Program-made: the position numbers and the translations under genes
Virus record (IMG/VR): IMGVR_UViG_3300032257_000009
Span: 7,728 to 71,727 of that record
DNA from: a virus
DNA: 64,000 bases
Strand: one strand, 5' to 3'
Shown here: piece after piece, positions 15,597 through 40,593 of the stretch
How the letters are laid out: every line of letters starts with the position of its first letter
How positions within the stretch are numbered: position 1 is the first letter of the stretch
The notes under the pieces: generated by a model
Seen by the model: only the letters and a program-made list of their open reading frames with translations
Databases searched by the model: none
Told to the model about the DNA's origin: nothing

Positions 15597-16427
15597 ATGT
15601 CGAAAATTATAGATCTGGATTTAGAGAAATTGGAGAAACTTTGGGACGCATTTGATGAGAAAAAGAAAACTCACTCAAAAAGCGATCCAGAGTATATATC
15701 AATAAGAAATGAGCTGATGGTTGAGTATTATCCGTTTGTCACTAAGATAGCGGAGAGTATGGCTATCAAGCTTAGAGACATAACTGATGACGAACTCGCT
15801 TCTTTTGGTACAGAAGGTCTTATACAAGCTATAGAGAAGTTTGATAGAAACCTGGGCATAAAGTTCAAAACATATGCAATGTATCGAATAAGAGGATCAA
15901 TGCTTGACAATATAAGGAAAGCAGACTGGGTTCCAAGACTCGTTAGAAGAAAACATTCAAAACTAAATAAAGAGAGAATGAAATTCGAATCAGAAGCAGG
16001 ACGGGCCTTGTCTGATGGCGAGATGGCGGATAGAATGGGTATAACGATAGAAGAATTCAGCAAGATAAAGAAAGATTCAACTCCATCAAGCCTTGTCTCT
16101 ATGAATTCCAAATCGAAAGATGACCAGAATGAGGAATATGATTCTGTTTCAAACATTGCAGTATCAGATGATAAAGAACCTTTAGAATCTATACTTAGAG
16201 AAGAGATGTACAAAAAACTACTGGGTAAAAACTTTACTCCTTTAGAAAGAAAAATCATACATATGCATTACTATGAAGATTTGACTATGAAGGAAATATC
16301 AAAAGAAACTAGTTTTTGTGAGTCAAGGATAAGTCAGATGCATGCTGACATCATCAATAGATTGAACAGAAAGATTACCAGAAACCCAGAATATGCAGCC
16401 GATTTACAGAGAATGCTCAACATTTGA
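15597..16427 (+). CDS. fliA: RNA polymerase sigma factor, FliA/WhiG (sigma28) family
   Basis: GLIQAIEKFD..GIKFKTYA..RIRGSMLD..R..DWVPR; region 4 YYEDLTMKEI...ESRISQMH. Confidence 0.92.
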   Translation: MSKIIDLDLEKLEKLWDAFDEKKKTHSKSDPEYISIRNELMVEYYPFVTKIAESMAIKLRDITDDELASFGTEGLIQAIEKFDRNLGIKFKTYAMYRIRGSMLDNIRKADWVPRLVRRKHSKLNKERMKFESEAGRALSDGEMADRMGITIEEFSKIKKDSTPSSLVSMNSKSKDDQNEEYDSVSNIAVSDDKEPLESILREEMYKKLLGKNFTPLERKIIHMHYYEDLTMKEISKETSFCESRISQMHADIINRLNRKITRNPEYAADLQRMLNI

Positions 16428-25671: not shown

Positions 25672-26220
25672 ATGGCTTCAGATATATCAGCAGAAACACC
25701 AGCGAATACATATAAAGACTTATTGCATATTAATAATAATGGAGCAGGCCTTGATGGTACGCCAAAAAATATATATGCAGGTGGTGGTGTCGCAACTACT
25801 GTCAATATATCTACCACTCAAGTTTATGGAGATGCTGGCGATGGCGTTTGGGAAAACGTTATTCTTCAAGATCATAAAACAAAACATTTAGATAAGGGAA
25901 GTGTAGGTGATGCAACGGCAAACCCTACTGAGATAGATTTATCTCTTGCTTCTTCTGTCAAGATAACTCTTACTGATAATATATCAGCTATATCGCTTTT
26001 GAATGCTCCAGCAACAAACGATCATTATGAATTAACAATAATCTCAGTTCAAGGCAGCGGTCCTTTTACAATAACTTGGCCTACTTCTGTTAAGTGGCCT
26101 GGAGCAGTAGCTCCTACATTATCTTCCGCCAGTGGTCGGGCAGACATTTTTAGAATGTTTACTGTTGATCAGGGGACTACATGGATCGCATGGACCGTTG
26201 GGCAAGATTATGCAATCTAA
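25672..26220 (+). CDS. Virion fibre/decoration-type beta-sandwich protein
   Basis: TWPTSVKWPGAVAPTLS..ADI...D.GTTW pattern seen at the ends of phage fibre proteins. Confidence 0.6.
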   Translation: MASDISAETPANTYKDLLHINNNGAGLDGTPKNIYAGGGVATTVNISTTQVYGDAGDGVWENVILQDHKTKHLDKGSVGDATANPTEIDLSLASSVKITLTDNISAISLLNAPATNDHYELTIISVQGSGPFTITWPTSVKWPGAVAPTLSSASGRADIFRMFTVDQGTTWIAWTVGQDYAI

Positions 26221-26234
26221 AAGAAAGAACTAGT

Positions 26235-28145: not shown

Positions 28146-28154
28146 GGAGAGAAT

Positions 28155-28832
28155 ATGTCAGGCTTTAACTTGAAAACAGAAAAAACAGCACAAGAAAAAA
28201 TACATGATAAGCAACTAGAAGATCAAAGGTCCGACATTGAATCCAATGATGGGTCTCAAATACATGAGAAGATCATAGAAGACTCTAGAGGTGAAGGGCA
28301 GGGATCTGAATTAGATATTCCTGCTGAAACTCAAATGTCAAAGGTTCATGAAACTCTGAAGCAAGCCGAGCAGCTTACTGAAGGGCAGCTTACTGAGAGA
28401 GATAGTTATCAAACTCATAGGGATGAACTTGTTGATGATCATATTATGAAACCAATGGATGCGATGGCTGAAGCTAATTTCCAAAGAAAAGAAGAGGCAT
28501 ACTCTTCTTCTGACAAAGAAGACACTAAGTTCTGGGATGACTTTGTTGGGGTTCAGCTAGAGGGAGATGCTCATAAGGTTATCGCTTCAGACCCAGCAGA
28601 GGGAAGCCAATTGAATAACCAAACAGGAAGATTCAAGGGAGTTCTTGCTTCTAGCGATAATGTCAAGACAGCTTCTATACAGGAATTAGATGAAGCTATT
28701 TTTGGTATATTTTACAAATCTGCTTCAGAAAAAAGAGAACTAACAGAAGAAGAGGGAGAAGACCTTATCGCTCTGTCTTCTGTTAAGGTCGGAATATTGT
28801 CAAGCATACAAGATATATCAGAAAGCGAATAA
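28155..28832 (+). CDS. Acidic head-associated protein (FNLK..KTAQ leader)
   Basis: SD AAGGAG; repeated (I/L)xExQ(L/M) motif; KTAQ, KTAS, KSAS. Confidence 0.65.
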   Translation: MSGFNLKTEKTAQEKIHDKQLEDQRSDIESNDGSQIHEKIIEDSRGEGQGSELDIPAETQMSKVHETLKQAEQLTEGQLTERDSYQTHRDELVDDHIMKPMDAMAEANFQRKEEAYSSSDKEDTKFWDDFVGVQLEGDAHKVIASDPAEGSQLNNQTGRFKGVLASSDNVKTASIQELDEAIFGIFYKSASEKRELTEEEGEDLIALSSVKVGILSSIQDISESE

Positions 28833-29410
28833 TGTCATTCAATTTGAAAAGATATAAATATTCTCGTCGAGGAGAAGAACCTTCAGAGGTTTTTACTCGT
28901 CCGTTTTTTAGAGAAAGAGATGTTTATGATACAACTCGATTACCTAATGATGGAAAAGGCTACAAACATACCACGATGATGAGTGAAGGTATGCCTGGAG
29001 AACCTGGCGATATTGCTGCTCCTTCTGGTGGCTCTCGAACAAGAGATGGCTCTCCGGAGCCAGACGACTATTCAAGGTATAATCCAGATGGCAGAGAAGA
29101 CTCTCAGGATGCAAAGAATAAATTGCCTTCTGATACAGAACCAGATCAGCCATTCGGAAACGGATCAGGGTCTCAATATAATGAAGGTACTCAAACGGAC
29201 TATGGCACAGCAGGTCACGAGGGAACTAATAGGGAGCCAAGCGATTCTCCTATGAGTATTGAGAGAACCGTTGAGAGAAAGCTTGGCCCTGGCGGTGAAT
29301 TGGATAGAAAACCAACAATAACAGAAATGCCAAAGAAGAACCCGTTCAACAAATCGTTGAATAATGACGATACACCACTTAGACGTGTTAGAAGATTACA
29401 AAGGAGATAA
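28832..29410 (+). CDS. Disordered head-associated protein (MSFNLKR leader)
   Basis: G/P/D-rich 192-aa ORF. Confidence 0.6.
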   Translation: MSFNLKRYKYSRRGEEPSEVFTRPFFRERDVYDTTRLPNDGKGYKHTTMMSEGMPGEPGDIAAPSGGSRTRDGSPEPDDYSRYNPDGREDSQDAKNKLPSDTEPDQPFGNGSGSQYNEGTQTDYGTAGHEGTNREPSDSPMSIERTVERKLGPGGELDRKPTITEMPKKNPFNKSLNNDDTPLRRVRRLQRR

Positions 29411-29413
29411 AAC

Positions 29414-30142
29414 ATGCAGTTAAGAGTTTCTGAAAAAGTAAAAGGCGAATTATTCGTAAAAGAATTGGGCAAGACATTTAGAAAGGGGTCGAAGATTCCT
29501 ATGTCTCAAGACCAATACAGCGCCTCAGCTACACAAGCCGCAATAAGAGCAGGATTTTTAGAAGTTATTGAGGGTGAAACCAAAGTAAAGCTAAAAGGGA
29601 AATATTACAAGAATATACACAAGAATGCAATATCTTTTAGATGTATAGATATGAGCGTTCCTTCAGGTTCTGTCTTCTTTGTTTCCGATCAAGTCACTGA
29701 TGATCAAGAGATTTGGCTTGCTGAGCAAAAAGAAAGAATCGAAGAAGTAAATGCCAAAGAAATGATTGCTCCAAAGAAAAAGAAATCATCGAAAAAGACT
29801 CCTGCAAAGAAGAAAAAAGAAGCAGCAGTAGCTGAAGAAGATTCGTTGGTTGAAGAAGAAACATCCGTAAAAGCAGATCAGGGTCCTGAGACAAAGTTAC
29901 CGGAAGAAGAGGAAGTAGAAAACCCAGAAGGTTCATATGTCCACGATCCAAGAGAAGATGCTGAACCAATGAAAATTAGAAGAGTAAGGAAGCCTGATAC
30001 AACATGGGCTGATGATACTAAAGAAGAAGTAATCAAAGAGACTACTGACTTATTCGAAGAAGACGGTGCAGATTTGAACTTCGTAGATAATCCTACAGCC
30101 AAAGATTTGAACTTTGTAGATAATAATGGAGAAGTGAGTTAA
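29414..30142 (+). CDS. Hypothetical protein with two small N-terminal repeat domains and a charged tail
   Basis: SD AGGAG; C-terminal DLNFVDN duplication. Confidence 0.6.
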   Translation: MQLRVSEKVKGELFVKELGKTFRKGSKIPMSQDQYSASATQAAIRAGFLEVIEGETKVKLKGKYYKNIHKNAISFRCIDMSVPSGSVFFVSDQVTDDQEIWLAEQKERIEEVNAKEMIAPKKKKSSKKTPAKKKKEAAVAEEDSLVEEETSVKADQGPETKLPEEEEVENPEGSYVHDPREDAEPMKIRRVRKPDTTWADDTKEEVIKETTDLFEEDGADLNFVDNPTAKDLNFVDNNGEVS

Positions 30143-30144
30143 TA

Positions 30145-30873
30145 TTGCATAATATTATTCTAAAAGAACTAAGAGTATTGGGCGTGTCTGTGGCAGATGG
30201 TAAATATCATATGTCGGGCAAGTCTTTTTCTCGTGAAGAACTTTTTGAAAATATAAGAAGCACTACAAAGAAGAGAAAAAGATTGCTTTGGACAATGTGG
30301 CATGAAGTAGCTATGGAACTAACTTCTGATGCGACAAACTCCTCTCCAACTGATTCTATTAGGAAATTATTTGTATCATCTCTACATGACCTATATACTC
30401 TCTCATGTTGTTTTGATGAGCTTGATAAGTGTAATGTTGTGAAAGCAATAAAAGTTTCATTGGATAAAGATATTGAGTCCTTTTCGTCTATATCTATGTC
30501 TAATGTAATAGACTACGCTCTTAGTATAGAATGGTTGAACCATCTTATAAGAAGAGATTTATATACAATTGCGTTAATAACTAAACTGAGCGAGTCGTTA
30601 CAGACTGAAGCTACTGGCGTGGCAGGTCCTTGGTCCAGAACTGATGTTCCTATGCAGGAAAGAGTTTTCAAATGGGATCAGGTTGCTGGAGAAACTGCTG
30701 GTAGAGCGATGGACCGTAGAAATCAAAGAAGATATCGTCAAGGTTTTGAAGGTTATAAAGATCTTTGGCCCAACGAAGGTACTTATTGGAGAGAGATTCG
30801 CAATGAGCCGTATAAATTTGATGACAAAGATTCAAATCCTTATCCACATAGAAATACTTTATGGAGTTCCTAA
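30145..30873 (+). CDS. Hypothetical protein
   Basis: 242 aa; TTG start. Confidence 0.6.
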   Translation: MHNIILKELRVLGVSVADGKYHMSGKSFSREELFENIRSTTKKRKRLLWTMWHEVAMELTSDATNSSPTDSIRKLFVSSLHDLYTLSCCFDELDKCNVVKAIKVSLDKDIESFSSISMSNVIDYALSIEWLNHLIRRDLYTIALITKLSESLQTEATGVAGPWSRTDVPMQERVFKWDQVAGETAGRAMDRRNQRRYRQGFEGYKDLWPNEGTYWREIRNEPYKFDDKDSNPYPHRNTLWSS

Positions 30874-31286
30874 TGAATGATAGCAATTTAGAAAAATCAG
30901 CACAAACATCTCTTTTTGATTTCTTACTAGACTCAATTCCTGAATTGCAGTTCATAAGGAATAAGAAGAATGGCCCAAGTTCTGTAGAGAGATCTCTTTA
31001 TAGCTTATGGTCAGATGCTGAAAATCAGATAAACTCCAGAAAGTTTCAAAAGCCAATAGGGATGGATGATGCAGTTGTTATGCAATTAGAATCTTCTGGC
31101 CTTGTTGAAGTGCATAATAAGAATATAAAAGTAACGAATAAGGGAGCTAACGCTATACAGAAAATCATTTTGAATGAAGAGACATCTATCTTTGAGAAGT
31201 CAGCAAGTCAAAATGGTATAGTAAAAGTTGCATCTATTCAGAATAATATATCGAGAGATACATGGTATCAGAGAATCAGAAACTAA
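30873..31286 (+). CDS. Hypothetical protein (winged-helix-like core; KSAQ/KSAS/KVAS motifs)
   Basis: LESSGLVE..IKVTNKG wHTH-like pattern. Confidence 0.55.
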   Translation: MNDSNLEKSAQTSLFDFLLDSIPELQFIRNKKNGPSSVERSLYSLWSDAENQINSRKFQKPIGMDDAVVMQLESSGLVEVHNKNIKVTNKGANAIQKIILNEETSIFEKSASQNGIVKVASIQNNISRDTWYQRIRN

Positions 31287-31693
31287 AAACCTACTTAGTA
31301 GAATATGAGAACAAAAAAGTTAGAGGCAAGAAAAAGATGCTGAAAAAACTTTATTGGTATGATCATGAATACAAAGTTATGTATACTGTTTACGGAGACC
31401 AGCTTCGTATGAGATGGCATAAGGAGTGGAAAAAATCAATACCAGACGTTGAATGGGATAAGGAAGAAAAGAAGTGGGTAATGAAAGAACCTGTATACGA
31501 GGTTTCATTCAATTTAGCAAATAATAAAAAAGAGATAGAGAATTGGGTAAAGAATGTGGCTTCTAGATTGGGAGTCGAGTTGAATAGGGAAGAAACAGAT
31601 AGCAAGGGTATAGCTATTGATGTCCCGTCTCATATTTCAAGCCAGATTGAATACTTGTTAGATAGGAATCTTTTCAGGCATAGGGAACTATAG
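31262..31693 (+). CDS. Hypothetical protein
   Basis: 143 aa; start uncertain. Confidence 0.55.
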   Translation: MVSENQKLKTYLVEYENKKVRGKKKMLKKLYWYDHEYKVMYTVYGDQLRMRWHKEWKKSIPDVEWDKEEKKWVMKEPVYEVSFNLANNKKEIENWVKNVASRLGVELNREETDSKGIAIDVPSHISSQIEYLLDRNLFRHREL

Positions 31694-31697
31694 GCAT

Positions 31698-31916
31698 ATG
31701 AAAATAATAAAATCAGAATCTTATAAAGAAAGAATTGATGGCGGTCTTGCAAAAGGAAAAACTCCAAAAGACTTTGATAAAATACAGTTAGAAAAAGGCA
31801 TATCAATTGAGATGGAGCATACAACCGACAGAAAGATAGCTAGAGAGATAGCTATGGATCATTTAACTGAAGACTGCAATTATTATAAAAAGTTAGAAAA
31901 AATAGAAAATAAATAA
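31698..31916 (+). CDS. DUF5661-like small protein
   Basis: GISIEMEHT...AREIAMDHL.E..NYYKKL. Confidence 0.7.
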   Translation: MKIIKSESYKERIDGGLAKGKTPKDFDKIQLEKGISIEMEHTTDRKIAREIAMDHLTEDCNYYKKLEKIENK

Positions 31917-32836
31917 TGACAACATATTTTCCAAAACTAAGAATAACAATAGCTGATACTCCTTCGAAGCAAGCAAGAGGTCTTATGTTTGTTAATAAGC
32001 TTCCAGAAGACAAGGGAATGTTATTTGTTTTCGCTCATCAGCGTATTCTAAGTTTTTGGGGAGAGAATACTTTGATTCCACTTGATATAGCTTTTGCTGA
32101 TATTGATGGCAATATTAGGGAGATGGGCAGTATTTCTGCTTTTTCACGGAAAGCTGTTAGAAGTTCAGTTCCTTGTGTATATGCCGTTGAAGCAAATGTT
32201 GGTTATTTTTCGGAAAACAAAATAGGTATAGGCGATAAAATTGAAATCGAAGAAGATGCAGACGGACATTATTTATCGTTTGCAAAAAAAAGAAGGAATG
32301 TATCTGCTGGAAAAGGAAGAAAAATAACAACCATTACCGCTCAGCTTGTCCCAGATATGGACAATACAGGCGATTTTGGGGTAGATGATGCACAGTCTAG
32401 ATATGATTCGTTGCCAAAGCTCAGCCCAGGAGATATTGGGTCAGCTCTTGAAGACAATCAAGAAGACTTCACGCAAGATGTCCAACAGCCTTCAGAAGAG
32501 GACAGAGGACAACTTCCTGTTGGATTGCCAATGGAAGAAGAACCAATAGAGGAAGCTCCTCAGTTTGACAACGCATTTGATGCGACTGAATGGGCTAAAC
32601 CTACAATGGAAAACGGCTTCGAAGGAAGCCCTATGAGAATAGATTATACGACGAAGAGCGGAAATAATATCATAAGAGACGTGGAACCTCATGGAATGTT
32701 TCATTCAGAGTCCACTGGAAATCAGGTTATGGTAACTTATGATAAGACGATAGGTGATATAAGGGCATTTATTGTAGGAAATATAAATTCATTCTCTTTT
32801 CTAGATGAAAAGTTTGAACCAAAGTTTAGGATATAA
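31916..32836 (+). CDS. DUF192 + WYL-like fusion protein
   Basis: N-terminal IADT...RGLMF...GMLFVF..FW..NT.IPLDIAF; C-terminal IDYTTKSG..IRDVEPH...YD...DIRAF. Confidence 0.75.
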   Translation: MTTYFPKLRITIADTPSKQARGLMFVNKLPEDKGMLFVFAHQRILSFWGENTLIPLDIAFADIDGNIREMGSISAFSRKAVRSSVPCVYAVEANVGYFSENKIGIGDKIEIEEDADGHYLSFAKKRRNVSAGKGRKITTITAQLVPDMDNTGDFGVDDAQSRYDSLPKLSPGDIGSALEDNQEDFTQDVQQPSEEDRGQLPVGLPMEEEPIEEAPQFDNAFDATEWAKPTMENGFEGSPMRIDYTTKSGNNIIRDVEPHGMFHSESTGNQVMVTYDKTIGDIRAFIVGNINSFSFLDEKFEPKFRI

Positions 32837-32837
32837 A

Positions 32838-34157
32838 ATGGAACAGTCTGTAACAGATCTTATTAAAATAGCTCAGAACCTAGATGAATCAGGTTTTGAA
32901 GATCTATCTATTCGTTTAGATTCTATCGCTGATAGCCTCTCTGATATAAAGGTTGCTCAATACGTTGGCGCTCAAGGATACTGGATTAGAAACACTAGAT
33001 GTTGGACTAATTGTTATAGGCAAAAGAGAGCTTCTTTCCCAGGCAAGGCAGCTCAAGAAGTTTGGGGAGAATGCCATTCAGAATATTTGGCCTCAATAAA
33101 TAACGACGGTAGCAAATGGGACAAGTACGCTGAAACAGAAGAAGGCATCGTAAAAATTGCTTCTCAGAAATCTATTATAGACGAAAAATTAGCAAAACTA
33201 ATAAGCGAAAAAGTAGAAAAGGGAGCGTCTACAGGACAGTCCGTTTTTGAATCCCTCAATGAATTGCAAGATTCATATGACTCAGAAGATATAAAGATAG
33301 CTACTCGACTGTTTGATTTTTCAGCAGAATTGTTTGACAAGAATCCCCAAGAAGCAATAAAGGTAGCTCATATCGCAGAAGGCTTTGTTAAGGAATCTCA
33401 ATTATGGAGAGGTCTTGGCGGGGCTTTGAAAAACATGGGGCAAGGAGCTGTTGAGAATGTTCAATACTTTAGCTACATCAAAGATATAGAATCTAGAGCT
33501 AAGAGAATGTCAGGAATGATAGAAGGCCTAAATCAATCTGTTTCTAATGCTCAGAACTACTTCAATACTACACAAGCTCAGAATCCAGCGACTATACAGA
33601 AATTTGAAGCCGCTAAGCAAGTCCTAAATCAGGTTTCTCAAGAAACAATGCAAGTTGATTCTGTTTTGAAAAATATAAACAGAAACGTAGTAAATGTCTT
33701 ACAAGGCGTTTCTCAGCAAAACACTTCTAATTTTATGGGTCAGGGACAGCAGTCAGCTCCTCAACAAGCAGCTCCTCAACAGGGTGGCGTTCCTTCTAAT
33801 ATATCTATGCCAGGGCAACCTGCTCAAGGGCAAATGTATCCTGCTCAGCAAAGCAATGTTCCTTCTAATATATCTATGCCGGGACAGCCTGCTCAAGGAC
33901 AAATGTATCCAAATACAGCTCCTAATGCGGGCAATGGCAATGTCTCAGTTCCAAACCAAAACTTTGGACCACAGACAACTTTTGGCCCAGGACAAAATAA
34001 GCCCAGACGTAGGGCGCAACTTCCTAATAATAGGGGAACTGGCTACATTTCTCCTGAATCAGGTTCAAATCGGGAAGTAAAAAAAGGTAAAATAGCGAAT
34101 AATGTCGCATATAACAGATCTAAGGCTTTTGGCACAACAATAGAGGAGTCCAAATAA
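32838..34157 (+). CDS. Head-associated protein with Q/P-rich C-terminus
   Basis: LIKIAQNLDESG, KVAQ, KIAS and KESQ motifs. Confidence 0.65.
   Translation: MEQSVTDLIKIAQNLDESGFEDLSIRLDSIADSLSDIKVAQYVGAQGYWIRNTRCWTNCYRQKRASFPGKAAQEVWGECHSEYLASINNDGSKWDKYAETEEGIVKIASQKSIIDEKLAKLISEKVEKGASTGQSVFESLNELQDSYDSEDIKIATRLFDFSAELFDKNPQEAIKVAHIAEGFVKESQLWRGLGGALKNMGQGAVENVQYFSYIKDIESRAKRMSGMIEGLNQSVSNAQNYFNTTQAQNPATIQKFEAAKQVLNQVSQETMQVDSVLKNINRNVVNVLQGVSQQNTSNFMGQGQQSAPQQAAPQQGGVPSNISMPGQPAQGQMYPAQQSNVPSNISMPGQPAQGQMYPNTAPNAGNGNVSVPNQNFGPQTTFGPGQNKPRRRAQLPNNRGTGYISPESGSNREVKKGKIANNVAYNRSKAFGTTIEESK
33789..33910 (+). repeat. Coding duplication VPSNISMPGQPAQGQMYP x2 (69-bp period)
   Basis: Near-identical 53-bp copies at 33789 and 33858. 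Confidence 0.85.
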
Positions 34158-34861
34158 TGCAATTTTTCAGTAACAAAATTCCAGTAGGAAATAAATCAAA
34201 TTTCGGTGATTTGATTCAGAAGATAGCTAACTCAAACGAGGCAACTATCAAAACAGCATCAGTAGAAGACCTAGTTGTCGCAGAGTGCGATGATGCGGAC
34301 GAAGACTGCGTAAGAACAGACAAGCATAGCGGAGAAGCATCTCCTAAAGATCAAAATGGTGAAGCGGAAGCCGATGGCGAAAGCAAAACTGTTGATCCTG
34401 ATGGCTTGAGCGCTGGTTCAGATAGCGACACAAAAGTTGCTAGCGAAGGAACAGCTACTCCAAGTGGAGCTGGCGACGGCGAAGACCTTGATGGGGTAAA
34501 TACAGGTCGTTTCCCAGACGATTTTGATCCTCAGCAAGAAGCAGAAGACGAAGGTACTGCCGACGTTGAAGCTTCTACTGAAACTCAGATCAAAGAAGCT
34601 GGAGAACTTCCACAGGCACTAAAAGATCATCAGTTCAAAGCTAAGGGCGATTCAGATGATTCTGATTCAGACTCTGACGACAAGGATTGCGATTCAGATG
34701 ATTCTGATTCCGATGATGACGGAGAATCTTGCGAAGCAAACTCAGGCTCTAAGCTTGAGAAAATAGCAAACCTTTCTCCAAAGGCAAAGAGCCGTTTGAA
34801 GGCTTATTGGAAGATGGTTTATCCTGAGGCTTACTCAGACGCTATGACTCAAGAGAAATAA
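34157..34861 (+). CDS. Highly acidic head-associated (scaffold-like) protein
   Basis: D/S-rich tract; KIAN, KTAS, KVAS, KEAG. Confidence 0.65.
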   Translation: MQFFSNKIPVGNKSNFGDLIQKIANSNEATIKTASVEDLVVAECDDADEDCVRTDKHSGEASPKDQNGEAEADGESKTVDPDGLSAGSDSDTKVASEGTATPSGAGDGEDLDGVNTGRFPDDFDPQQEAEDEGTADVEASTETQIKEAGELPQALKDHQFKAKGDSDDSDSDSDDKDCDSDDSDSDDDGESCEANSGSKLEKIANLSPKAKSRLKAYWKMVYPEAYSDAMTQEK

Positions 34862-34880
34862 TAAAAACACGGAGAAAAAA

Positions 34881-35597
34881 GTGGCTATTGTACCAAGTGG
34901 AAACCGTAAATTTATGAAATTGCAGCAGGCTGTCGATCCAGTTGCTGGTCTTGGAGCAACAGATGTTGACCAAGAAGTTGTTTATAACAATGAACAACAG
35001 GACCAAGGTCAAGGCTCAGCTTTTGACTTCGAGGGACTTCAGCAGCAGATGGACGGTCAACCTCAAGAGAGTTTGAATGAAAATCCTCTCAGTGGAGATC
35101 CTATGGATCAAGCTGCTGAGGAAGAAGAGCCTTTGACTGATTTGGAAGAGAGTCTTGAAAAAGCAGTCTTGAAAAATCTTGCAGAGCTTGGAGTTCCTGA
35201 GAAAATGTTTAGAACCAAAGACGGAATTGATCCGTTTTTTCAGTGGGATGAAGACTTAGATAACGGAACTAGTTCTGGTTTCTACCTCATTCCATCTTAC
35301 ACTGAATCTAGACAGGTTAGTCGCAATGATGCAAAAGACTTAGCTCAAAGGATTGGTGCAGAATATAATCTTTCTCAGAAGATAACAAAAGAAGGCCACA
35401 ATTTCAGAGTTAAATTTCAGACCAAAGCAGAAGAACCACAAAATGCTCAATATGGTACATCATTTGATAACCTATTGAAACCAGAAAAGGCTAGCGATAT
35501 GTCTCGTGCAGCCTCTAGTAGTAATTCAATTATCACAGCAAATTCAAGCAATCAAACGCTTGATAATCTTTTCAAGCAATTCAAGGGGAAAAACTAA
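34881..35597 (+). CDS. Hypothetical acidic protein
   Basis: GTG start with SD GGAG. Confidence 0.6.
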   Translation: MAIVPSGNRKFMKLQQAVDPVAGLGATDVDQEVVYNNEQQDQGQGSAFDFEGLQQQMDGQPQESLNENPLSGDPMDQAAEEEEPLTDLEESLEKAVLKNLAELGVPEKMFRTKDGIDPFFQWDEDLDNGTSSGFYLIPSYTESRQVSRNDAKDLAQRIGAEYNLSQKITKEGHNFRVKFQTKAEEPQNAQYGTSFDNLLKPEKASDMSRAASSSNSIITANSSNQTLDNLFKQFKGKN

Positions 35598-36370
35598 TGG
35601 CAAGAATTCAAAAGACATCACAAGAGCATAATCTTAGTATTTTTGATACTCTTGATCAGAAGCATATCTCTATTGAAGATAGGCAGCCAGAAATGAAGCA
35701 ACCTAGACAGAAGGAGTCAAGCTTTGATCACTCTGTCGGGGGAGCAACTGCTGCTCCTAAACTATCTCATAACTCTATTGATGAGATAGATATGGTAAGA
35801 GGAAAGAGCAGCGTAAGATCTGCTCGCTGTGGTAGTATTAGTAATGACCTGTCGTCTAATAACGCTATGGGAGTTGCTGGTAAGAATACTATTTGTAATC
35901 CAGATTTCTTAGATAAGCTAGCAGAAGCTGTTACTAATAAAGAAAGAACATTGGCAGAAAAGGACTCGATACAGAACCAGAGATCAACACGTCAATCTGA
36001 TTATAAAAATAGCGGAGCAGTAAAACTCGGAGAAGATGATGAAGCATATCTTGCAAGAAATGCATCCTCTATAGATTCATCTTCTAGAGAAGCTAATAAC
36101 AAGGGCTGGGTTCCTAATGGTACTATAAGTATTTTTGATAATGAAGACTTTGAAAGAGTTCAGCCTACTCTAGGCGAACAGATGACTAAGAAAGAAGCAT
36201 CAAAAGATGATTCTTGGAGAAGCTATTCAAAGAACGCAACGGTTAGAGATCAAGGGCTTAGCGCATTCGATAAGATGGCAGAGTCTCATGATAGCGAATA
36301 TAGAAATCACCACCAAGACTCAACTGATAAATTGTTTGAGATATTGAAGGCTTCCAAGAAAGTAGACTAA
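35597..36370 (+). CDS. Hypothetical protein (KTSQ leader)
   Basis: 257 aa; coupled start/stop. Confidence 0.6.
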   Translation: MARIQKTSQEHNLSIFDTLDQKHISIEDRQPEMKQPRQKESSFDHSVGGATAAPKLSHNSIDEIDMVRGKSSVRSARCGSISNDLSSNNAMGVAGKNTICNPDFLDKLAEAVTNKERTLAEKDSIQNQRSTRQSDYKNSGAVKLGEDDEAYLARNASSIDSSSREANNKGWVPNGTISIFDNEDFERVQPTLGEQMTKKEASKDDSWRSYSKNATVRDQGLSAFDKMAESHDSEYRNHHQDSTDKLFEILKASKKVD

Positions 36371-36374
36371 TAAA

Positions 36375-37589
36375 ATGGCGCTACCTCCAAATGCTGTAAA
36401 TATGCTTCATGACACCGAACAATCGGTAAGCGATTTAATATCAGGAAATCTAGGTGTTATGCCAGAAGGCTTAGATCCTGATCAGCAAGAAGAATTTCGA
36501 GCAAGACAATTGGCTGCTTTGCAAAATGCAGATCAAGCTGTTTCTCTTGTTACAGATACTCAGCAAGAAGTTGGTCAAGTCATGAATGATGCCGCAGCGC
36601 AATTGCCTGCAATGGCTAGTTCTTTGTTTAGTCTTGAAAGGTTTGCTCAAGAGCAATTTATGCAAGAGCCAATGATGCAAGAAGATCCAATGATGCAGGA
36701 TCCAATGGTGCAAGAAGAAGTCCAAGAGGACACGGTAATGGGATTTACCAATCATATAGATTTATTTCATTGGCTTGAAGAGCAGTTTACTCAAGGAGTA
36801 GACTCTTCTGATATAAGAAGCCAATTGATTACAATAGTGGGGGAGTCTGAGATTTTAGATCAAAATGGTTTCCCAATTGAGCCAGCAGAAGTCGTTGCTA
36901 GCGAATTAACAAATTACACAGAAGCTCTAAATTCTGACAAACTAGAAGAAAGAGCATCTATAGCAAAAAGGATTTTTGACGTTATGCCACAAAAAGATAC
37001 CTCAGAAAATGAAGTCTCAGTTGTTGAGAAAACAGTAGCAGAGACTAATGGAATCCTTCGTCGTTTGGCTTCCGAGCTTGCAAATAATCAGACCAAAGAG
37101 AGTTCTTCTGGTTTCAATCTAAGCAAAGTTGCTCAGCATAAGACAGTAGAGAATGTAATAATGCATGGTCCTGTCGGTAATAGGATAGACCCATTTACTG
37201 GATATCTTATAAACGATTGGCATGTCTATGAAAGAAATAAGGGATGGGGTCTTCGAGCAGGAGACGCTATCGGTATTGATTACGAAGCTTTATGGAGAGG
37301 CAACGTAATGGATAAATACAGCCGTCCTTACAGAAACAAAGATGGAGATTGGATAGGCGGATATATTCAAAAGAGATTTGAAGTAGATAAGTTTATTCCA
37401 GAATCTAATAACCTACAATTGAAGCCTGGACAAAAGAGAAAGCCTTATGTGGCAGAGTTTGCTTCGCAAGAAGCTAGACTACAAGATCTTCGTTCGAAGG
37501 AAGATTCTAGAGGTCGTGTTTTTAATGATACGAGCAAGCCTTTCAATTGGAAAGAAGCTCAGAGCTGTAAAAAAAAAGTGAACGGCTAA
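36375..37589 (+). CDS. Head-associated protein ending in a slippery A9 run
   Basis: FSLERFAQ, FNLSKVAQ, FNWKEAQ; ends ...AAAAAAAAAG. Confidence 0.7.
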   Translation: MALPPNAVNMLHDTEQSVSDLISGNLGVMPEGLDPDQQEEFRARQLAALQNADQAVSLVTDTQQEVGQVMNDAAAQLPAMASSLFSLERFAQEQFMQEPMMQEDPMMQDPMVQEEVQEDTVMGFTNHIDLFHWLEEQFTQGVDSSDIRSQLITIVGESEILDQNGFPIEPAEVVASELTNYTEALNSDKLEERASIAKRIFDVMPQKDTSENEVSVVEKTVAETNGILRRLASELANNQTKESSSGFNLSKVAQHKTVENVIMHGPVGNRIDPFTGYLINDWHVYERNKGWGLRAGDAIGIDYEALWRGNVMDKYSRPYRNKDGDWIGGYIQKRFEVDKFIPESNNLQLKPGQKRKPYVAEFASQEARLQDLRSKEDSRGRVFNDTSKPFNWKEAQSCKKKVNG

Positions 37590-38326
37590 CTAAAGAGGCT
37601 CTTTTCGGCCTTAAGCTAAGAAACAATACCCCAGAAGATATGCCCGCCGAGGTAGATCCTTCTGGGGTATCTTATGATATCAATATGATTGGAAAACATA
37701 AGACCGAAGAATATTCAGGCCCTCAACCAGGCGTTGATTTTTTCGAAGGAGATATGGTAGAGATACTTCATCGAGGAAGACCTACTGGCATGAAGGGTGT
37801 TATAAGAAGGTTTGAGGGAGTAAGAAGTGGAGTTCCATATGCAAGAGTTGCAATAGAAGGGGTTCAGGGCGGAGACGTGGTTGCCTTGAATTCTATGCAA
37901 AAGATAGCTCAATTTATGGGAGAAGGACCTGGTAGGCCAGAAGCTGACCCATTTGTTATGCCTGATATCGGAGAAACGCAAGGACATGCTCAAAAGAGAA
38001 ATAAACCTGCTCTTCAAAAGACTTGTCCGATTTGCACATCTACAAATTCTGCAAACGCACTGAACTGTGTAAATTGCGGAGCAGATTTGAAGAATCCGTA
38101 TACCGTACCAAGACAGCCTACTCAAAAAATGTCTCAAGTTGGAACATATATGGTGAATCCTCCTACTAATAGAGATGTAAAAAGTCCAACTCAGGAAAGC
38201 TTTGAAAGAAGAAAGAAAAGAGTTGACAACAAAAACAAATTGTCATCAGATGAATTTGTCGATATAAAGGGAGAGGATCATGACGAGCAGGTGGCTAATT
38301 CCGCTATATCGCTTGGCATTATCTAA
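37571..38326 (+). CDS. SH3/KOW-like + Zn-ribbon protein, probably a -1 frameshift extension of the upstream gene
   Basis: Frame is open from 37571; the ATG at 37640 lacks an SD; CPIC..CVNC. Confidence 0.6.
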   Translation, partial: KKSERLTKEALFGLKLRNNTPEDMPAEVDPSGVSYDINMIGKHKTEEYSGPQPGVDFFEGDMVEILHRGRPTGMKGVIRRFEGVRSGVPYARVAIEGVQGGDVVALNSMQKIAQFMGEGPGRPEADPFVMPDIGETQGHAQKRNKPALQKTCPICTSTNSANALNCVNCGADLKNPYTVPRQPTQKMSQVGTYMVNPPTNRDVKSPTQESFERRKKRVDNKNKLSSDEFVDIKGEDHDEQVANSAISLGII

Positions 38327-38340
38327 GGAGATGAAATAAT

Positions 38341-40593
38341 ATGGCGATTAATAAGAATAACAAGCCTATAAAAATGAATTTGCCAGATAAGAAGACTAAG
38401 AGGATAGCTGCTGCTGCAAAAACAGGACAGCAACAACCTCTTGAGAAAAATTCTATTCAGGGAAAAAGTTATACAGCAAGTGGTGTTGTTGCTGTCCCCT
38501 TCTCTAAGACTGCACAGCAGCTTGGCGGAGGATCTAATACTTTATTCACACAACCAATGTTCTTTTCACCATTGCATACTCCTCAAAACTGGCAGATAGC
38601 TAGTAAGAGGCAAGAAGTCTATCAATGGTCTAGGTTTTATTACGAAAATGAACCAAAGGTTGCAGCAGGCATTGATTTCTATTCGCAATTTCCTATAAAT
38701 GGTTTCAAATTGGAATGCAAGAGCAAGAAGATACAGAAGTATTTCGAGAGACTTGTTGATAAACTAGAATTGTTAAGAATGCTTCGACTTATATCTCATG
38801 AGAGATTTCTCTTGGGGGATGTTTTTGTATTCTTAGATATTGATTCTCCAGACTCAAGAGGAGAGACTGATGTTCCATCAGGAGAGCATACTCATGCTGA
38901 TGGTACTATTAGTAGAATTATTATTTTGAATCCTGATTGGATTGAGGTTTATAATACTCCTTTGGCTGATGAACCAGAGATAGTTTTGATGCCAGATGAT
39001 GAATTGAAGAAGATAGTTCAGATGAAACAGCCTAAATCTATATACGATAGGCTCCCAGATGAAATAAAAGAACAAGTATTGGCTGCAAGGCCTATTAGAT
39101 TATCAAATAGAGTTACAAGCCATATAAAGCATGGTGGAGCGCCATACGGTACATACGGAGAATCATTACTTCGTAGACTGTTTACAGTTCTTGCTTATAA
39201 AACAAAACTAATGACGGCAAACTGGATTGTTGCGGAAAGACTTGTTCTTCCTGTTCGAGTTGTAAAAGTTGGAGATAAAGATCGTCCAGCAGGCGAAGAT
39301 GATATAGCTGATGTGCAATCACAGTTAGGTGCGGTGGCTAATGACCCTAACCTAACCATCGTTACCCACCATGCCTTTGATTACGAATGGTATGGAGCTA
39401 CAGGTAAAATTCATAACATAACAAGTGAAATAGAAACAATTGGCAAAGAGCTTCTAGACGGCATGATGCTAAACCAAGCTCTTCTCAATGGAGAGATGGC
39501 AGCATATTCCTCAGCACAGGTTGGTGTGGAAATGCTTATTCGTCGTCTTGAATCTTGGAGAAATGAATTAGCAGAATGGGTTGAAAAGAATATATTCCTT
39601 ATTGTTTCAAAAATGCAAGGCTTCTTAGATGAAGATGCGTCAAAAGAAGCAGGAGAATCGGTATATATAACTCCAACTATAAAATGGGATGACCTAAGAC
39701 TTAGAGACCCTTCCAATAGAATACAGCAGGCTATACAGCTAAACCAAAACGGCATTATATCAAATCAGACTCTTTTAGAAATGTTTGACCTTGATTACGA
39801 TCAAGAAGTTCAACGAGTTCGAGAAGAACAGGTTATGGTAGACCCAATGGGCGGTCAAATGCCTGGCGGAATGCCTGGCGGCGACCCAATGGGCGGCGGC
39901 ATGGGTGGAGGAATGCCTGGTGGAGACCCAATGGGCGGAGACCCTATGGGTGGTGGAATGGGCGGCGGAATGCCTGGAGGCGACCCGATGGGTGGCGGAA
40001 TGGGTGGCGCTCCGGGCGGAATGGGTGGCGCTCCTGGCGGCGCTCCTATGGCAGCAGGAAATGCTCCTCCTCAAAGAATCACAAAGAGAGGTAAAGCTGG
40101 CCCGAAAGAAGAAGAAGTTGAGCCTGTAGTTTCAAAACAAGTTCAACTAACAAGACCAGAAGCCAAAACATTGAGAATATTGAACGAGATAGATACTCCA
40201 TATAGTCCTTATATTCAATATAAGGTTCAAGTTCCTGGCGGTCAACAACCTTATTCTTTAGATTTTGCTTTCCCTCAAATAGGATTAAACGTAGAGGCAG
40301 ACGGAGAAAAGTGGCACACAAGTCCAGAAGATGTTCGTTCTGATAAAGAGAGAGATACCAAGCTAGCTCAGCAAGGATGGACTGTTATAAGGATTAGCGA
40401 AACATCTTTGAATGAAAATGCAGATGGGGTAAAAGATCTTTTAGGTTCAGCAATCGTAGAGGCTGCTGAATTAAGAAGGAAAATGGATAAAAAATCATCA
40501 ATTGATTCAATAAGACTTGTACAGGCTTATGTAGAGGACAGATTGACTCCGCATGCGGTTAGTATTAGTAAACCAGGAATTCAAGAGGATTGA
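38341..40593 (+). CDS. Portal protein with Gly/Met/Pro linker and C-terminal DUF559/Vsr-like endonuclease domain
   Basis: Lies between terL and the protease; portal-like features (GDVF, LNPD, YGESLLR); C-terminal LDFA..VEADG..WH...D.ERD..L...GW.VIR. Confidence 0.8.
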   Translation: MAINKNNKPIKMNLPDKKTKRIAAAAKTGQQQPLEKNSIQGKSYTASGVVAVPFSKTAQQLGGGSNTLFTQPMFFSPLHTPQNWQIASKRQEVYQWSRFYYENEPKVAAGIDFYSQFPINGFKLECKSKKIQKYFERLVDKLELLRMLRLISHERFLLGDVFVFLDIDSPDSRGETDVPSGEHTHADGTISRIIILNPDWIEVYNTPLADEPEIVLMPDDELKKIVQMKQPKSIYDRLPDEIKEQVLAARPIRLSNRVTSHIKHGGAPYGTYGESLLRRLFTVLAYKTKLMTANWIVAERLVLPVRVVKVGDKDRPAGEDDIADVQSQLGAVANDPNLTIVTHHAFDYEWYGATGKIHNITSEIETIGKELLDGMMLNQALLNGEMAAYSSAQVGVEMLIRRLESWRNELAEWVEKNIFLIVSKMQGFLDEDASKEAGESVYITPTIKWDDLRLRDPSNRIQQAIQLNQNGIISNQTLLEMFDLDYDQEVQRVREEQVMVDPMGGQMPGGMPGGDPMGGGMGGGMPGGDPMGGDPMGGGMGGGMPGGDPMGGGMGGAPGGMGGAPGGAPMAAGNAPPQRITKRGKAGPKEEEVEPVVSKQVQLTRPEAKTLRILNEIDTPYSPYIQYKVQVPGGQQPYSLDFAFPQIGLNVEADGEKWHTSPEDVRSDKERDTKLAQQGWTVIRISETSLNENADGVKDLLGSAIVEAAELRRKMDKKSSIDSIRLVQAYVEDRLTPHAVSISKPGIQED
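39841..40050 (+). repeat. Low-complexity coding repeat (GGDPMGGGMGGGMP)n
   Basis: GC-rich tandem repeats within the portal ORF. Confidence 0.85.

What the first reader, a model, noticed from the sequence alone, without database searches (positions are those of the whole stretch)
37560..37640. Candidate programmed -1 ribosomal frameshift upstream of the portal gene
Seen: ORF 36375 ends TGT AAA AAA AAA GTG AAC GGC TAA. The -1 frame opens exactly at this A9G run (after a TAA at 37568) and reads KKSERLTKEALFG... through to 38326, including a K-x-A motif before the SD-less ATG at 37640. A hairpin (37595-37612, extendable to 37585-37616) follows. This would yield 404-aa and about 650-aa products. 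Phage frameshifts are best known in tail chaperones and capsid genes, not at this position.
Basis: partly seen in the sequence, partly recalled or inferred. Interest (0 to 1): 0.7.

Follow-up and report, generated by a model that had tools for sequence, protein, structure and literature searches.

The report
Conserved poly-A slip site before portal
The gene just before the portal gene of this large uncultured phage ends in a run of nine A's that is kept in all related phages examined and most likely lets one gene make a short head protein and a rarer long one with a zinc-ribbon tail; the trick is known, but I found no description of this gene family.

Summary
ORF1 (36375-37589, 404 aa) ends TGT AAA AAA AAA GTG AAC GGC TAA. 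The -1 frame is closed by TAA at 37568-37570 and then open to 38326.

It is not chance or a sequencing error. The A9 is the only A/T run of 9 or more in the 71.7-kb contig, and contigs from two further runs show the same A9. All 109 distinct junctions from related phages carry A9-A12 at this boundary. In 95 the zinc-ribbon ORF lies in the -1 frame, in 12 it is in frame (one A more), and in 2 it is +1.

Recoding is strongly supported, giving 404-aa and 650-aa products.
- The run is never shorter than 9.
- Its codon phase varies.
- The hairpin is no better than shuffled sequence.
- Neither downstream structure nor an upstream SD-like motif is enriched.

RNA-polymerase slippage (Thermus dnaX, IS-element and tssM type) fits best. 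Ribosomal -1 shifting is not excluded, and no RNA data were available.

The gene is a head-module protein of unknown fold. This scan has found the same family before on other DNA. Verdict: a new member of a known kind.

The parts
36375..37589 (+). ORF1, 404 aa: the short (0-frame) product. It has a Q/E/M/P-rich N-terminal half and a conserved C-terminal domain (residues ~228-395).
   Evidence: 288 homologs at E<=1e-5; 304 clusters at 50% identity. Invariant residues are listed. No Pfam or PHROG family.
37551..37565 (+). K-E-A-Q-S at the end of the conserved KPFNWKEA motif, 4 residues before the run. This is a candidate prohead-protease cut motif (K-x-A-S/Q); the cut is inferred.
   Evidence: W392 and A395 invariant. 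[KR]xA[SQ] lies within 14 aa upstream of the run in 67 of 109 junctions. K.A[SQ] is concentrated in head-module ORFs, 27 of 30.
37568..37570 (+). TAA that closes the -1 frame immediately 5' of the run.
   Evidence: T precedes the run in 96 of 109 junctions and C in 13 (tallied from the table). The TAA forms only where the run starts at codon position 1.
37569..37577 (+). The A9 slip site (0 frame AAA AAA AAA = K399-K401).
   Evidence: the only run of 9 or more in the contig. (A9 in contigs of 3 runs). (A9-A12 in 109 of 109 distinct junctions). (elsewhere only 5 of 273 KKK triplets are all-AAA, against 76 expected).
37587..37589 (+). 0-frame stop TAA, 3 codons after the run.
   Evidence: In 95 split relatives the 0-frame stop follows the run by a median of 0 whole codons (max 10), and the +1 frame by a median of 3 (max 22).
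37577..38326 (+). The -1 frame extension (249 aa after the run, SERLTKEA...SLGII, plus stop). It is read only after +1 A in the mRNA or a -1 ribosomal shift. The long product is 650 aa.
   Evidence: P0001. Homologous -1 ORFs appear in relatives. Substitutions in the 48 nt after the run fall 138/65/202 on codon positions 1/2/3 of the -1 frame. In-frame fused homologs exist.
37595..37612 (+). It is present but not supported as a stimulator.
   Evidence: z +0.93; 165 of 200 shuffles fold as well. (no enrichment of downstream structure in 108 relatives; window z -0.12).
37640..37642 (+). First ATG of the -1 ORF (codon 24 of the open frame). It has no GGAG-like motif upstream and its position is not conserved.
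   Evidence: An ATG lies within the first 30 codons in only 26 of 95 split relatives, and none lies in the first half of the ORF in 40 of 95.
37733..37861 (+). Small beta domain (P0001 residues ~55-97). It is present only in a subset of relatives (L001, P0071, P0020, P0014).
   Evidence: strands 62-95, pLDDT 64-82..
38024..38077 (+). Zinc ribbon CPIC...CVNC (P0001 C152, C155, C166, C169).
   Evidence: C152, C155 and C166 invariant, C169 in at least 90% of 32 sequences. (pLDDT 92-94). (weak DZR hit, E 0.0079, below the cut-off). (only weak matches to RanBP2/NZF-type zinc fingers; none at E<=0.001).
38279..38323 (+). Conserved C-terminal helix and tail of the long form (…VANSAISLGII; in relatives S[AC]xDL[AE]IDG or SAxHLGL).
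   Evidence: L248 invariant, S244 in at least 90%. (helix 237-247, pLDDT 72-81).
38341..40593 (+). Portal gene, immediately downstream. It serves as context and a marker of the head module.
   Evidence: phrog_16240, E 1.3e-42. (33% identity to the Bacillus phage G portal, gp14).

Best explanation
The A9 run at 37569-37577 is a conserved, programmed slippage site in a head-module gene of a large phage distantly related to Bacillus phage G.

Standard decoding gives the 404-aa ORF1 protein, which stops three codons after the run. In a minority of messages RNA polymerase most likely slips on the nine A:T pairs and adds one A. Ordinary translation then runs on into what is the -1 frame on the DNA. 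This gives a 650-aa protein: ORF1 through K401, followed by a linker, a small beta domain, a four-Cys zinc ribbon and a conserved C-terminal helix or tail.

Transcripts with other numbers of A's end within a few codons and give the short form. The phage would thus make two versions of one head protein in a ratio set by the slippage frequency.

What is shown: the anatomy, the conservation, and coding in the -1 frame right after the run. What is inferred: the polymerase as the slipping machine, the ratio, and the role of the tail. One idea for that role is that K-x-A protease motifs flanking the junction let the prohead protease release the zinc-ribbon part inside the head.
For: 1. Conservation of the run.
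- All 18 first-round sequences (17 distinct IMG/VR loci plus the window) have A9-A11 at the ORF1 end, with ORF2 in the -1 frame.
- Of 146 sources (145 loci plus the window), 143 have a run of 9 or more A's after the ORF1 domain. These collapse to 109 distinct junctions, all A9-A12.
- Of the 109, 95 need -1, 12 are in frame and 2 need +1.
- The run stays at the ORF1 end even where ORF1 carries a 50-200-aa extension.

2. Specificity.
- It is the only A/T run of 9 or more in the contig.
- Only 10 other such runs occur in 607 kb of the 109 loci.
- Only 5 of 273 other KKK triplets are all-AAA, against 76 expected.

3. The -1 frame is translated from the run onward.
- Substitutions fall 138/65/202 on codon positions 1/2/3.
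- The first ATG is late or absent.
- The zinc ribbon and C-terminal motif are conserved.

4. The fusion exists as an ordinary ORF.
- The 12 in-frame loci all still carry A10/A11, which is exactly one A more than the split forms.
- 35 of 242 database homologs read KKK and then the zinc ribbon in one frame. One example is P0071, with KKKSELSKQ....
- On the tree the in-frame forms are scattered tips, each next to split forms.

5. Features that favour polymerase over ribosome.
- The run is never shorter than 9 (27 A9, 65 A10 and 3 A11 among split forms).
- The codon phase of the run varies (0, 1 and 2).
- There is no downstream structure and no upstream SD-like enrichment.
- Stops follow quickly in both other frames, as described for Thermus dnaX.

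6. Literature (passages read).
- Slippage occurs on runs of 9 A/T. A run conserved among homologs is taken as a sign of purposeful transcriptional slippage, and IS elements make ORFA-ORFB fusions this way (PMC1088944; PMC5009743).
- In tssM an A11 run gives about 20-25% long form, and both forms are required (PMC4256274).

7. DNA is A9 in contigs of three runs.
Against: - No RNA or protein data exist. No RNA run holds this stretch, so neither product nor any A10 transcript has been seen.
- Any run of 9 or more A's contains an A_AAA_AAA or A_AAA_AAG heptamer in every phase. Ribosomal -1 shifting is therefore compatible with all 95 split loci and could act alone or in addition.
- The polymerase that transcribes these genes is unknown, and the run length at which slippage sets in differs between bacteria (PMC1088944).
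- The 12 in-frame and 2 '+1' junctions could be assembly errors at a homopolymer rather than biology.
- The 109 junctions are distinct sequences, not independent lineages.
- The tree is the quick one; the careful search did not finish.
- The function of either product is unknown. Both models are poor outside small parts (mean pLDDT 61.5 and 63.4), and fold searches found nothing at E<=0.001.
Confidence: 0.6

Rival explanations
1. Classic programmed -1 ribosomal frameshifting. Ribosomes translating unedited A9 mRNA slip back one base on A_AAA_AAA with two Lys-tRNAs and continue in the -1 frame.
For: - A valid X_XXY_YYZ heptamer is present in the 0-frame phase in the window and, trivially, in all 95 split junctions.
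- The offset is -1 in 95 of 97 out-of-frame junctions.
- In the phase-2 A9 group the 0 frame reads GTA AAA AAA AAG TGA. That is A_AAA_AAG followed directly by a stop. From recall, this is the E. coli dnaX type of heptamer.
- Phage structural genes are known to use -1 frameshifts, for example tail chaperones (PMC10885494, passages).
Against: - No stimulator was found. The window hairpin has z +0.93, downstream structure is not enriched in 108 loci, and upstream SD-like motifs occur in 11 of 109 against 17% of controls.
- A heptamer needs only 7 bases, yet no junction has fewer than 9 A's.
- The 62 phase-0 split junctions with T before and G after the run cannot present AAG in the A site.
- The two junctions that need +1 (L026, L048) would be dead under this model.
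Confidence: 0.25
2. DNA-level tract-length switching (a contingency locus). Replication slippage makes A9 and A10 genomes, and each virus makes only the short or only the long protein. The mixture exists at the population level.
For: - 12 of 109 junctions are in frame with exactly one more A, and 2 are off by one the other way.
- These variants are scattered at tips of the tree, next to split forms.
- Tract-length variants between otherwise identical IS copies, and replication slippage as an alternative, are discussed in PMC1088944.
Against: - The same out-of-frame state (needs +1 A) is held in 95 of 109 junctions and in every deep branch. Free switching would not give this.
- Contigs of three runs all show A9, with no indel reported. 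These are contigs at low depth, which cannot show minor variants.
- In-frame forms may be assembly errors.
Confidence: 0.08
3. Two ordinary genes. ORF2 starts on its own (ATG 37640 in the window), and the A run is just a Lys-Lys-Lys tail of ORF1.
For: - An ATG exists at 37640.
- Several genes here lack a strong SD, so its absence proves little.
- 26 of 95 relatives have an ATG within 30 codons of the run.
Against: - 40 of 95 have no ATG in the first half of the -1 ORF (GTG and TTG starts were not scored), and ATG positions are not conserved.
- Coding-type substitution bias starts right after the run.
- All-AAA encoding of KKK is otherwise avoided (5 of 273) but occurs at 109 of 109 junctions.
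- The -1 overlap geometry is kept even where ORF1 ends elsewhere.
- In-frame fusions exist.
Confidence: 0.04
4. Sequencing or assembly error. The true genome has A10 and one continuous 650-aa ORF.
For: - Homopolymers are error-prone.
- 12 of 109 relatives are assembled in frame.
Against: - A9 with 0 gaps appears in contigs of three runs from three samples.
- The same one-base-short state is seen in 95 of 109 distinct junctions from many samples and assemblers.
Confidence: 0.02

Closest known systems
Thermus thermophilus dnaX (tau/gamma), programmed transcriptional slippage on a run of nine A's
   Same: - A run of nine A's lies late in a coding sequence.
- Stops are close by in the other frames.
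- Two products share the N-terminal body and differ by a C-terminal extension with extra domains (PMC1088944 and PMC5009743, passages).
   Different: - In Thermus the long product is the templated one and slippage gives the short one. Here, in 95 of 109 junctions, the short product is templated and slippage gives the long one.
- The gene family is unrelated (a phage head-module protein).
- Slippage here is inferred, not measured.
Citrobacter rodentium tssM1 / Yersinia pseudotuberculosis tssM3, transcriptional frameshifting on a poly-A tract
   Same: - A premature stop follows shortly after a poly-A run.
- Added A's restore the frame and give a minority full-length form (~20-25%) beside a truncated one.
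- Both forms of a structural machine component are needed.
- Related species hold the tract in the other (in-frame) state (PMC4256274, passages).
   Different: - That tract is A11 in a bacterial secretion-system gene, and the frame relation differs (+1 as the authors count it).
- There the mechanism was proven by cDNA mass spectrometry and AAG substitutions. Here nothing has been tested experimentally.
IS-element orfA-orfB fusions made on A9 runs (Deinococcus, Nostoc and others), and the -1 ribosomal frameshift sites of other IS elements
   Same: - Two overlapping ORFs with the second in the -1 frame.
- A conserved A8-A10 run at the overlap.
- Tract-length variants between otherwise near-identical copies.
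- The fusion is the functional long product (PMC1088944, passages).
   Different: Those are transposases of mobile elements, not virion genes. The family here is far larger and older: 304 clusters at 50% identity.
Phage tail assembly chaperone G/GT-type programmed -1 ribosomal frameshift
   Same: A phage morphogenesis gene gives a short major form and a long minor form with a shared N-terminus through a -1 frame change (PMC10885494, passages).
   Different: - Different position: here it is the head module, directly before the portal, not between the tail tube and tape measure.
- Different, unrelated proteins.
- Here the signal is a long homopolymer without detectable stimulators.

Membership tests
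Programmed transcriptional slippage sites (Thermus dnaX / IS-element / tssM type) | Homopolymeric A or T run of about 9 or more in the coding strand | tested here: met
   A9 at 37569-37577. 109 of 109 distinct junctions have A9-A12, never fewer.
Programmed transcriptional slippage sites (Thermus dnaX / IS-element / tssM type) | The run is conserved at the nucleotide level among homologs, while such runs are otherwise avoided | tested here: met
   Only 10 other runs of 9 or more occur in 607 kb. 5 of 273 other KKK triplets are all-AAA, against 76 expected. It is the only such run in the contig.
Programmed transcriptional slippage sites (Thermus dnaX / IS-element / tssM type) | ORF layout in which one added base joins two ORFs and the other frames stop at once | tested here: met
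   The 0-frame stop follows at a median of 0 codons and the +1 frame at a median of 3. The -1 ORF has a median of 158 codons in 95 split junctions.
Programmed transcriptional slippage sites (Thermus dnaX / IS-element / tssM type) | An mRNA population with extra or missing A's relative to the DNA | not testable with these tools
   No RNA run holds the stretch. All runs laid were DNA contigs.
Programmed transcriptional slippage sites (Thermus dnaX / IS-element / tssM type) | The long product is lost when the run is broken by synonymous AAG codons | not testable with these tools
   This needs a bench experiment. No natural relative with a broken run was found among the 109 junctions.
Programmed -1 ribosomal frameshift sites (E. 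coli dnaX / IS911 type) | X_XXY_YYZ heptamer in the 0-frame phase | tested here: met
   A_AAA_AAA in the window. This is trivially met by any run of 9 or more in any phase, so it does not discriminate.
Programmed -1 ribosomal frameshift sites (E. coli dnaX / IS911 type) | Stimulatory stem-loop or pseudoknot a few bases downstream | tested here: not met
   For the window, z +0.93 and 165 of 200 shuffles fold as well. For 108 loci, mean z +0.19 against other windows of the same loci, with 11% below -1. Pseudoknots were not searched.
Programmed -1 ribosomal frameshift sites (E. coli dnaX / IS911 type) | Upstream Shine-Dalgarno-like stimulator | tested here: not met
   An SD-like tetramer lies 5-20 nt upstream in 11 of 109 junctions, against 16.6% at control positions.
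Phage tail assembly chaperone (G/GT) frameshift | Gene pair between the tail tube and tape measure genes; chaperone family | tested here: not met
   The pair lies between terL (26181-28145) and the portal (38341), directly before the portal. There is no PHROG or Pfam chaperone match.
Phase-variable contingency locus (replication slippage) | Tract length differs between close relatives or within a population, switching the gene on and off | tested here: inconclusive
   12 in-frame and 2 '+1' junctions of 109 are scattered at tips, but 95 hold the same state. No indel appears in contigs of 3 runs. Raw reads were not available.

The most novel reading that the evidence does not exclude
The tract works on two levels. 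RNA-polymerase slippage sets a fixed minority of head-protein copies that carry a zinc-ribbon cargo and a C-terminal docking helix. Candidate K-x-A protease motifs lie before the run (KEAQS) and in the -1 extension (KEAL about eight residues after it, KIAQ after the beta domain). The prohead protease could therefore cut the cargo free inside the capsid. In addition, frequent one-base changes of the tract in the DNA (12 in-frame and 2 other states of 109) would reset the short:long ratio heritably. That would make this a contingency locus in a phage head gene, kept in hundreds of lineages of very large phages.
Probability: 0.12. Interest if true: 0.75.

Novelty: new member of a known kind. Interest (0 to 1): 0.55.

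Why it matters
If true, a whole, very diverse group of large uncultured phages uses a poly-A slip site to make two versions of a head-module protein. The group spans 304 protein clusters at 50% identity, on contigs up to 548 kb.

Practical consequences:
- Gene callers split or truncate this gene. Most database entries end at KKK, and the zinc-ribbon ORF is left without a start.
- The fused entries may be taken for the norm, or for errors.

For the recoding field, it would be a large natural data set in which run length, phase and flanks vary. That could be used to separate polymerase from ribosome slippage.

For phage biology, it points to a stoichiometrically controlled minor head component next to the portal in phage-G-like megaphages.

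The mechanism itself is of a known kind, and nothing has yet been shown at the RNA or protein level.

Tried and rejected
- Sequencing error: rejected.
- Hairpin as stimulator: rejected as not above chance.
- Upstream SD-like stimulator: not enriched.
- Upstream RNA structure, as in stem-loop-mediated slippage: not enriched (mean z -0.14).
- Split terminase: rejected. TerL is at 26181-28145, and ORF1/ORF2 have no terminase match.

Function by family:
- ORF1 has no Pfam or PHROG hit.
- ORF2 has only two weak PHROGs of unknown function and a sub-threshold DZR hit.

Cultured relatives:
- tblastn of ORF1 and of the -1 ORF against 50,697 phage records found no match at E<=1e-5.
- Bacillus phage G, the nearest cultured portal, has no such gene with an A run before its portal.

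Function by fold:
- The ORF1 model is poor in the conserved domain (mean pLDDT 61.5). BFVD gave 0 matches at E<=0.001.
- The Atlas gave no hit of 0.9 or more and no TM above 0.37.
- For the ORF2 model, the PDB Foldseek search gave 0 matches at E<=0.001.

RNA evidence: no RNA holder was listed for window:36900-38400, so expression and mRNA heterogeneity could not be examined. All four runs laid were DNA contigs. X4 covers only parts of the stretch and begins at 37598, just 3' of the run.

Ribosome sliding on poly(A): considered. In the E. coli cell-free system it was robust at A11 but slight at A9/A10 (PMC4363877, passages), so it is an unlikely main route here.

Literature: searches (listings and abstract starts seen), and passages of PMC12484599 and PMC10885494, gave no description of this slip site or gene family. 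That is the basis for 'not in print'. Subscription journals are not covered. Supplementary Table 1 of PMC12484599 and the supplement of PMC10885494, which lists non-chaperone predictions, could bear on this claim.

Tree: the careful tree did not finish in 300 s, so the quick tree was used. treekit's 'changes' statistic compared only the two labelled groups with each other, so I did not use it.

Rows dropped:
- L018: ORF1 is truncated, so it has no domain motif. It does carry A9 and a -1 ORF.
- L046: the 0 frame stops 60 aa after the domain motif, with no run before it.
- L047: the frame runs off the locus.
- 34 exact duplicates of the junction were collapsed.
- 2 of 109 rows were too short for the tree.

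L026 needs care. It is 99.9% identical to L027 up to the L027 run and then unrelated. It has only A7 at that site and an A12 34 nt from the contig end. Its '+1' state is therefore doubtful.
Full report
**1. The observation**

The sequence is as described.
- ORF1 runs 36375-37589 (404 aa) and ends ...NWKEAQSC KKK VNG*, written TGT AAA AAA AAA GTG AAC GGC TAA.
- The A9 run is 37569-37577.
- The -1 frame holds TAA at 37568-37570 and is then open for 251 codons to 38326 (P0001: KKSERLTKEALFG...). Its first ATG is at 37640.
- One extra A in the message, or a -1 ribosomal shift, would give ORF1 residues 1-401 plus 249 residues, a 650-aa protein.
- The next gene, 38341-40593, is the portal (phrog_16240, E 1.3e-42). 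Its nearest cultured relative is Bacillus phage G gp14, at 33% identity.
- TerL lies at 26181-28145, and a protease-scaffold-like 1966-aa gene follows at 42955. The site therefore sits inside the head module.

**2. Not chance, not an error**

The A9 is the only A9/T9 run in the 64-kb window, against 4.7 expected from shuffles. It is also the only one in the whole 71,727-nt contig, where run counts fall steeply: A6 52, A7 6, A8 1, A9 1.

Contigs of three DNA runs from three samples cross the run with no gap and no other letter: X1 (which may be the source), X2 record 6 and X3 record 10. Depth is low, and contigs cannot show minor variants.

**3. Relatives**

ORF1 belongs to a large family without a name.
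- There are 288 proteins at E<=1e-5 in the 90% clusters and 304 clusters at 50% identity.
- There is no Pfam or PHROG family and no match in 50,697 deposited phage genomes.

I fetched 145 loci from IMG/VR and JGI metagenomes; many are the same contig fetched twice.
- Of 146 sources (the loci plus the window), 143 have a run of nine or more A's after the conserved ORF1 domain. They collapse to 109 distinct junction sequences.
- Three were dropped: L018 (truncated, though it has A9 and a -1 ORF), L046 (early stop, no run) and L047 (runs off the locus).
- All 109 junctions carry A9-A12.
- In 95 the long open frame after the run is the -1 frame (27 A9, 65 A10, 3 A11).
- In 12 it is the same frame (7 A10, 5 A11).
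- In 2 it is the +1 frame (L026 A12, L048 A10).
- The run stays at the end of ORF1 even in lineages where ORF1 carries a 50-200-residue extension beyond the KPFNWKEA motif.

These 109 are distinct sequences, not independent lineages. They do span identities to the window's ORF1 down to about 31-35%.

**4. The run is specific to this place**

In the 607 kb of the 109 loci there are only 10 other A/T runs of nine or more. Of 273 other Lys-Lys-Lys triplets in long ORFs, only 5 are written AAA AAA AAA, against 76 expected from codon usage of 65% AAA. All-A encoding of three lysines is therefore avoided everywhere except at this junction, where it is universal.

**5. The -1 frame is read from the run onward**

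- After the run the 0 frame stops at a median of 0 whole codons (max 10) and the +1 frame at a median of 3 (max 22). The -1 frame runs on for a median of 158 codons, range 69-248.
- An ATG lies within the first 30 codons in only 26 of 95 split junctions. In 40 of 95 there is none in the first half of the ORF. GTG and TTG starts were not scored.
- In 48 pairs of junctions that are 70% to under 100% identical over the 48 nt after the run, substitutions fall 138/65/202 on positions 1/2/3 of the -1 frame. This is the coding pattern, although the pairs are not independent.
- The -1 ORFs are homologous across the family. They share a DPF-like motif, a four-Cys zinc ribbon (three Cys invariant, the fourth in at least 90% of 32 sequences) and a conserved C-terminus: S[AC]xDL[AE]IDG or SAxHLGL, and in the window ...SAISLGII.

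**6. The fusion exists as an ordinary ORF**

The 12 in-frame loci all still carry the run. They are exactly the split forms plus one A. For example, TCT AAA AAA AAA AGT GAT... in L076 stands against ...TCT AAA AAA AAA GTG A.. in the A9 type. No locus has replaced the run by interrupted Lys codons.

Among 242 database homologs:
- 183 end in KKK plus at most ten residues;
- 35 read KKK and then the zinc ribbon in one frame;
- 6 have the ribbon without a KKK;
- 18 are other or truncated.

P0071 reads ...DSKKKSELSKQ..., then a beta domain like the window's, then the ribbon, then ...SASALGL. This matches the junction predicted for the window.

On a quick maximum-likelihood tree of the ORF1 domain (107 rows), the in-frame forms are scattered tips, each next to split forms. 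Only L114 and L124 may belong together. The one-base-short state is thus the state held through the tree. In-frame forms are recent changes, population variants or assembly errors.

**7. Which machine slips**

- The hairpin is real as a 6-bp stem, but 37578-37660 folds no better than shuffles: -13.3 kcal/mol, z +0.93, and 165 of 200 shuffles fold as well.
- Over 108 junctions the 50 nt after the run are not more structured than other windows of the same loci (mean z +0.19). The 50 nt before it are not either (mean z -0.14).
- SD-like tetramers 5-20 nt upstream occur in 11 of 109 junctions, against 16.6% at control positions.

The run itself behaves as a nucleotide-level signal.
- It is never shorter than nine.
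- It starts at codon position 1, 2 or 3 in different lineages, while the offset stays the same. Examples are NNT AAA AAA AAA G.., GTA AAA AAA AAG TGA, TCA AAA AAA AAA GTA and CAA AAA AAA AAG TAG.
- Both other frames close at once.

These are the marks of programmed transcriptional slippage as described in the literature.
- Slippage occurs on runs of nine A/T, and such runs are selected against in coding sequence. A run kept among homologs is a sign of purposeful use. IS elements make orfA-orfB fusions on A9, with A8-A10 variants between copies (PMC1088944, passages; PMC5009743, passages).
- Citrobacter tssM1 has an A11 just before a premature stop. About 20-25% of product is full length, both forms are needed, and Yersinia holds the tract in frame (PMC4256274, passages).
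- Ribosome sliding on poly(A) was slight at A9/A10 in an E. coli cell-free system (PMC4363877, passages).

None of this excludes ribosomal -1 shifting, because any run of nine A's holds a valid heptamer in every phase, and both routes give the same protein. I put polymerase slippage at 0.6, ribosomal shifting as the main route at 0.25, and recoding of some kind at about 0.9.

**8. What the proteins are**

This is unknown at the level of fold.
- The ORF1 model is confident only for a small helical part, residues ~120-205. The conserved C-terminal domain has pLDDT 40-60.
- BFVD, the Atlas and PDB searches gave nothing usable.
- The extension models as a small beta domain (residues 55-97, present only in some relatives), a zinc ribbon (pLDDT 92-94), a C-terminal helix and disordered linkers.

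Context says head module. The motif K-x-A-[S/Q] occurs 30 times in the window's long ORFs, and 27 of these lie in ORFs between 28146 and 48855. They include ORF1 (SKVAQ, KEAQS), the extension (KIAQ), the portal and the scaffold-like giant.

Earlier notes of this scan read this motif as the prohead-protease cut signal in phage-G-like megaphages (e1-5376602, e1-6071425). I checked only its distribution here. [KR]xA[SQ] lies within 14 residues before the run in 67 of 109 junctions. If it is a cut site, the protease would separate the ORF1 body from the zinc-ribbon tail after assembly. This is inference.

**9. Comparison and novelty**

The mechanism is of a known kind (Thermus dnaX, IS elements, tssM, and from recall Shigella mxiE). 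The family, and its place directly before the portal in a very diverse group of large phages, was not found in print by my searches. Supplements were not seen, and subscription journals are not covered.

This scan has found the same family before on other DNA, with the same reading (e1-5829826, e1-5324194, e1-5894715, e1-5632288). I reached the slippage reading before seeing these notes (note), and they agree with it.

**10. Verdict**

- Novelty: a new member of a known kind.
- Interest: 0.55.
- The decisive tests are tract-length spectra of cDNA against DNA, a reporter with the run shortened to a 7-base heptamer, and the junction peptide in virions.

Noticed in passing
window 38341-40593: The portal protein carries a Gly/Met/Pro-rich repeat linker and a C-terminal DUF559 / REase_MTES_1575-like endonuclease domain (residues ~627-702). 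The hits are PF04480 at E 3.6e-7, above its cut-off, and PF18741 at E 1.2e-8, below its cut-off.
   Followed up: partly
window 28146-48855: K-x-A-[S/Q] motifs are concentrated in head-module ORFs: 27 of 30 occurrences in long + strand ORFs of the window. They fall in ORFs 28146 (3), 30852 (3), 32805 (6), 34124 (2), 35567 (1), ORF1 (2), the -1 ORF (1), the portal (2) and the 1966-aa ORF (7). This fits the cut-site code proposed in earlier notes of the scan.
   Followed up: partly
window 36375-37589 and relatives (alignment A1): ORF1 repeats a short motif, F-N-[LW]-x-K-x-A, two to four times: consensus KxFNLKKAQ near residue 85, FNLKKxAQHK near 245, and KPFNWKEA near 390. Lineages with an extension repeat it again just before the run (for example SFNLKEAS-KKK in L012, L013, L015).
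   Followed up: partly
L026:3700-4055 versus L027:3642-3742: Two metagenome contigs are 99.9% identical over 3.7 kb up to the slip site of L027 and unrelated after it. L026 has only A7 there, reads on in frame, and carries an A12 34 nt from its contig end. This is either a recombination breakpoint at the tract or a chimeric assembly.
   Followed up: partly
window 38279-38323 and -1 ORFs of L001-L145: The extreme C-terminus of the long form is the best-conserved part of the extension apart from the four Cys (S[AC]xDL[AE]IDG-stop, or SAxHLGL-stop). It models as a short helix. It looks like a docking peptide, but its partner is unknown and no binding test was run.
   Followed up: no
L146:8860-8868 (Bacillus phage G, record 16357-16365): The only A9 run in the 11.3 kb around the phage G portal lies at the very end of gp17 (locus 8558-8872), two genes after the portal-adjacent gp15. 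Whether a shifted frame is open there was not examined.
   Followed up: no
Frames around it were not examined.
   Followed up: no
window 26181-38341: About 10 kb and a dozen same-strand ORFs without family matches separate terL from the portal.
   Followed up: no
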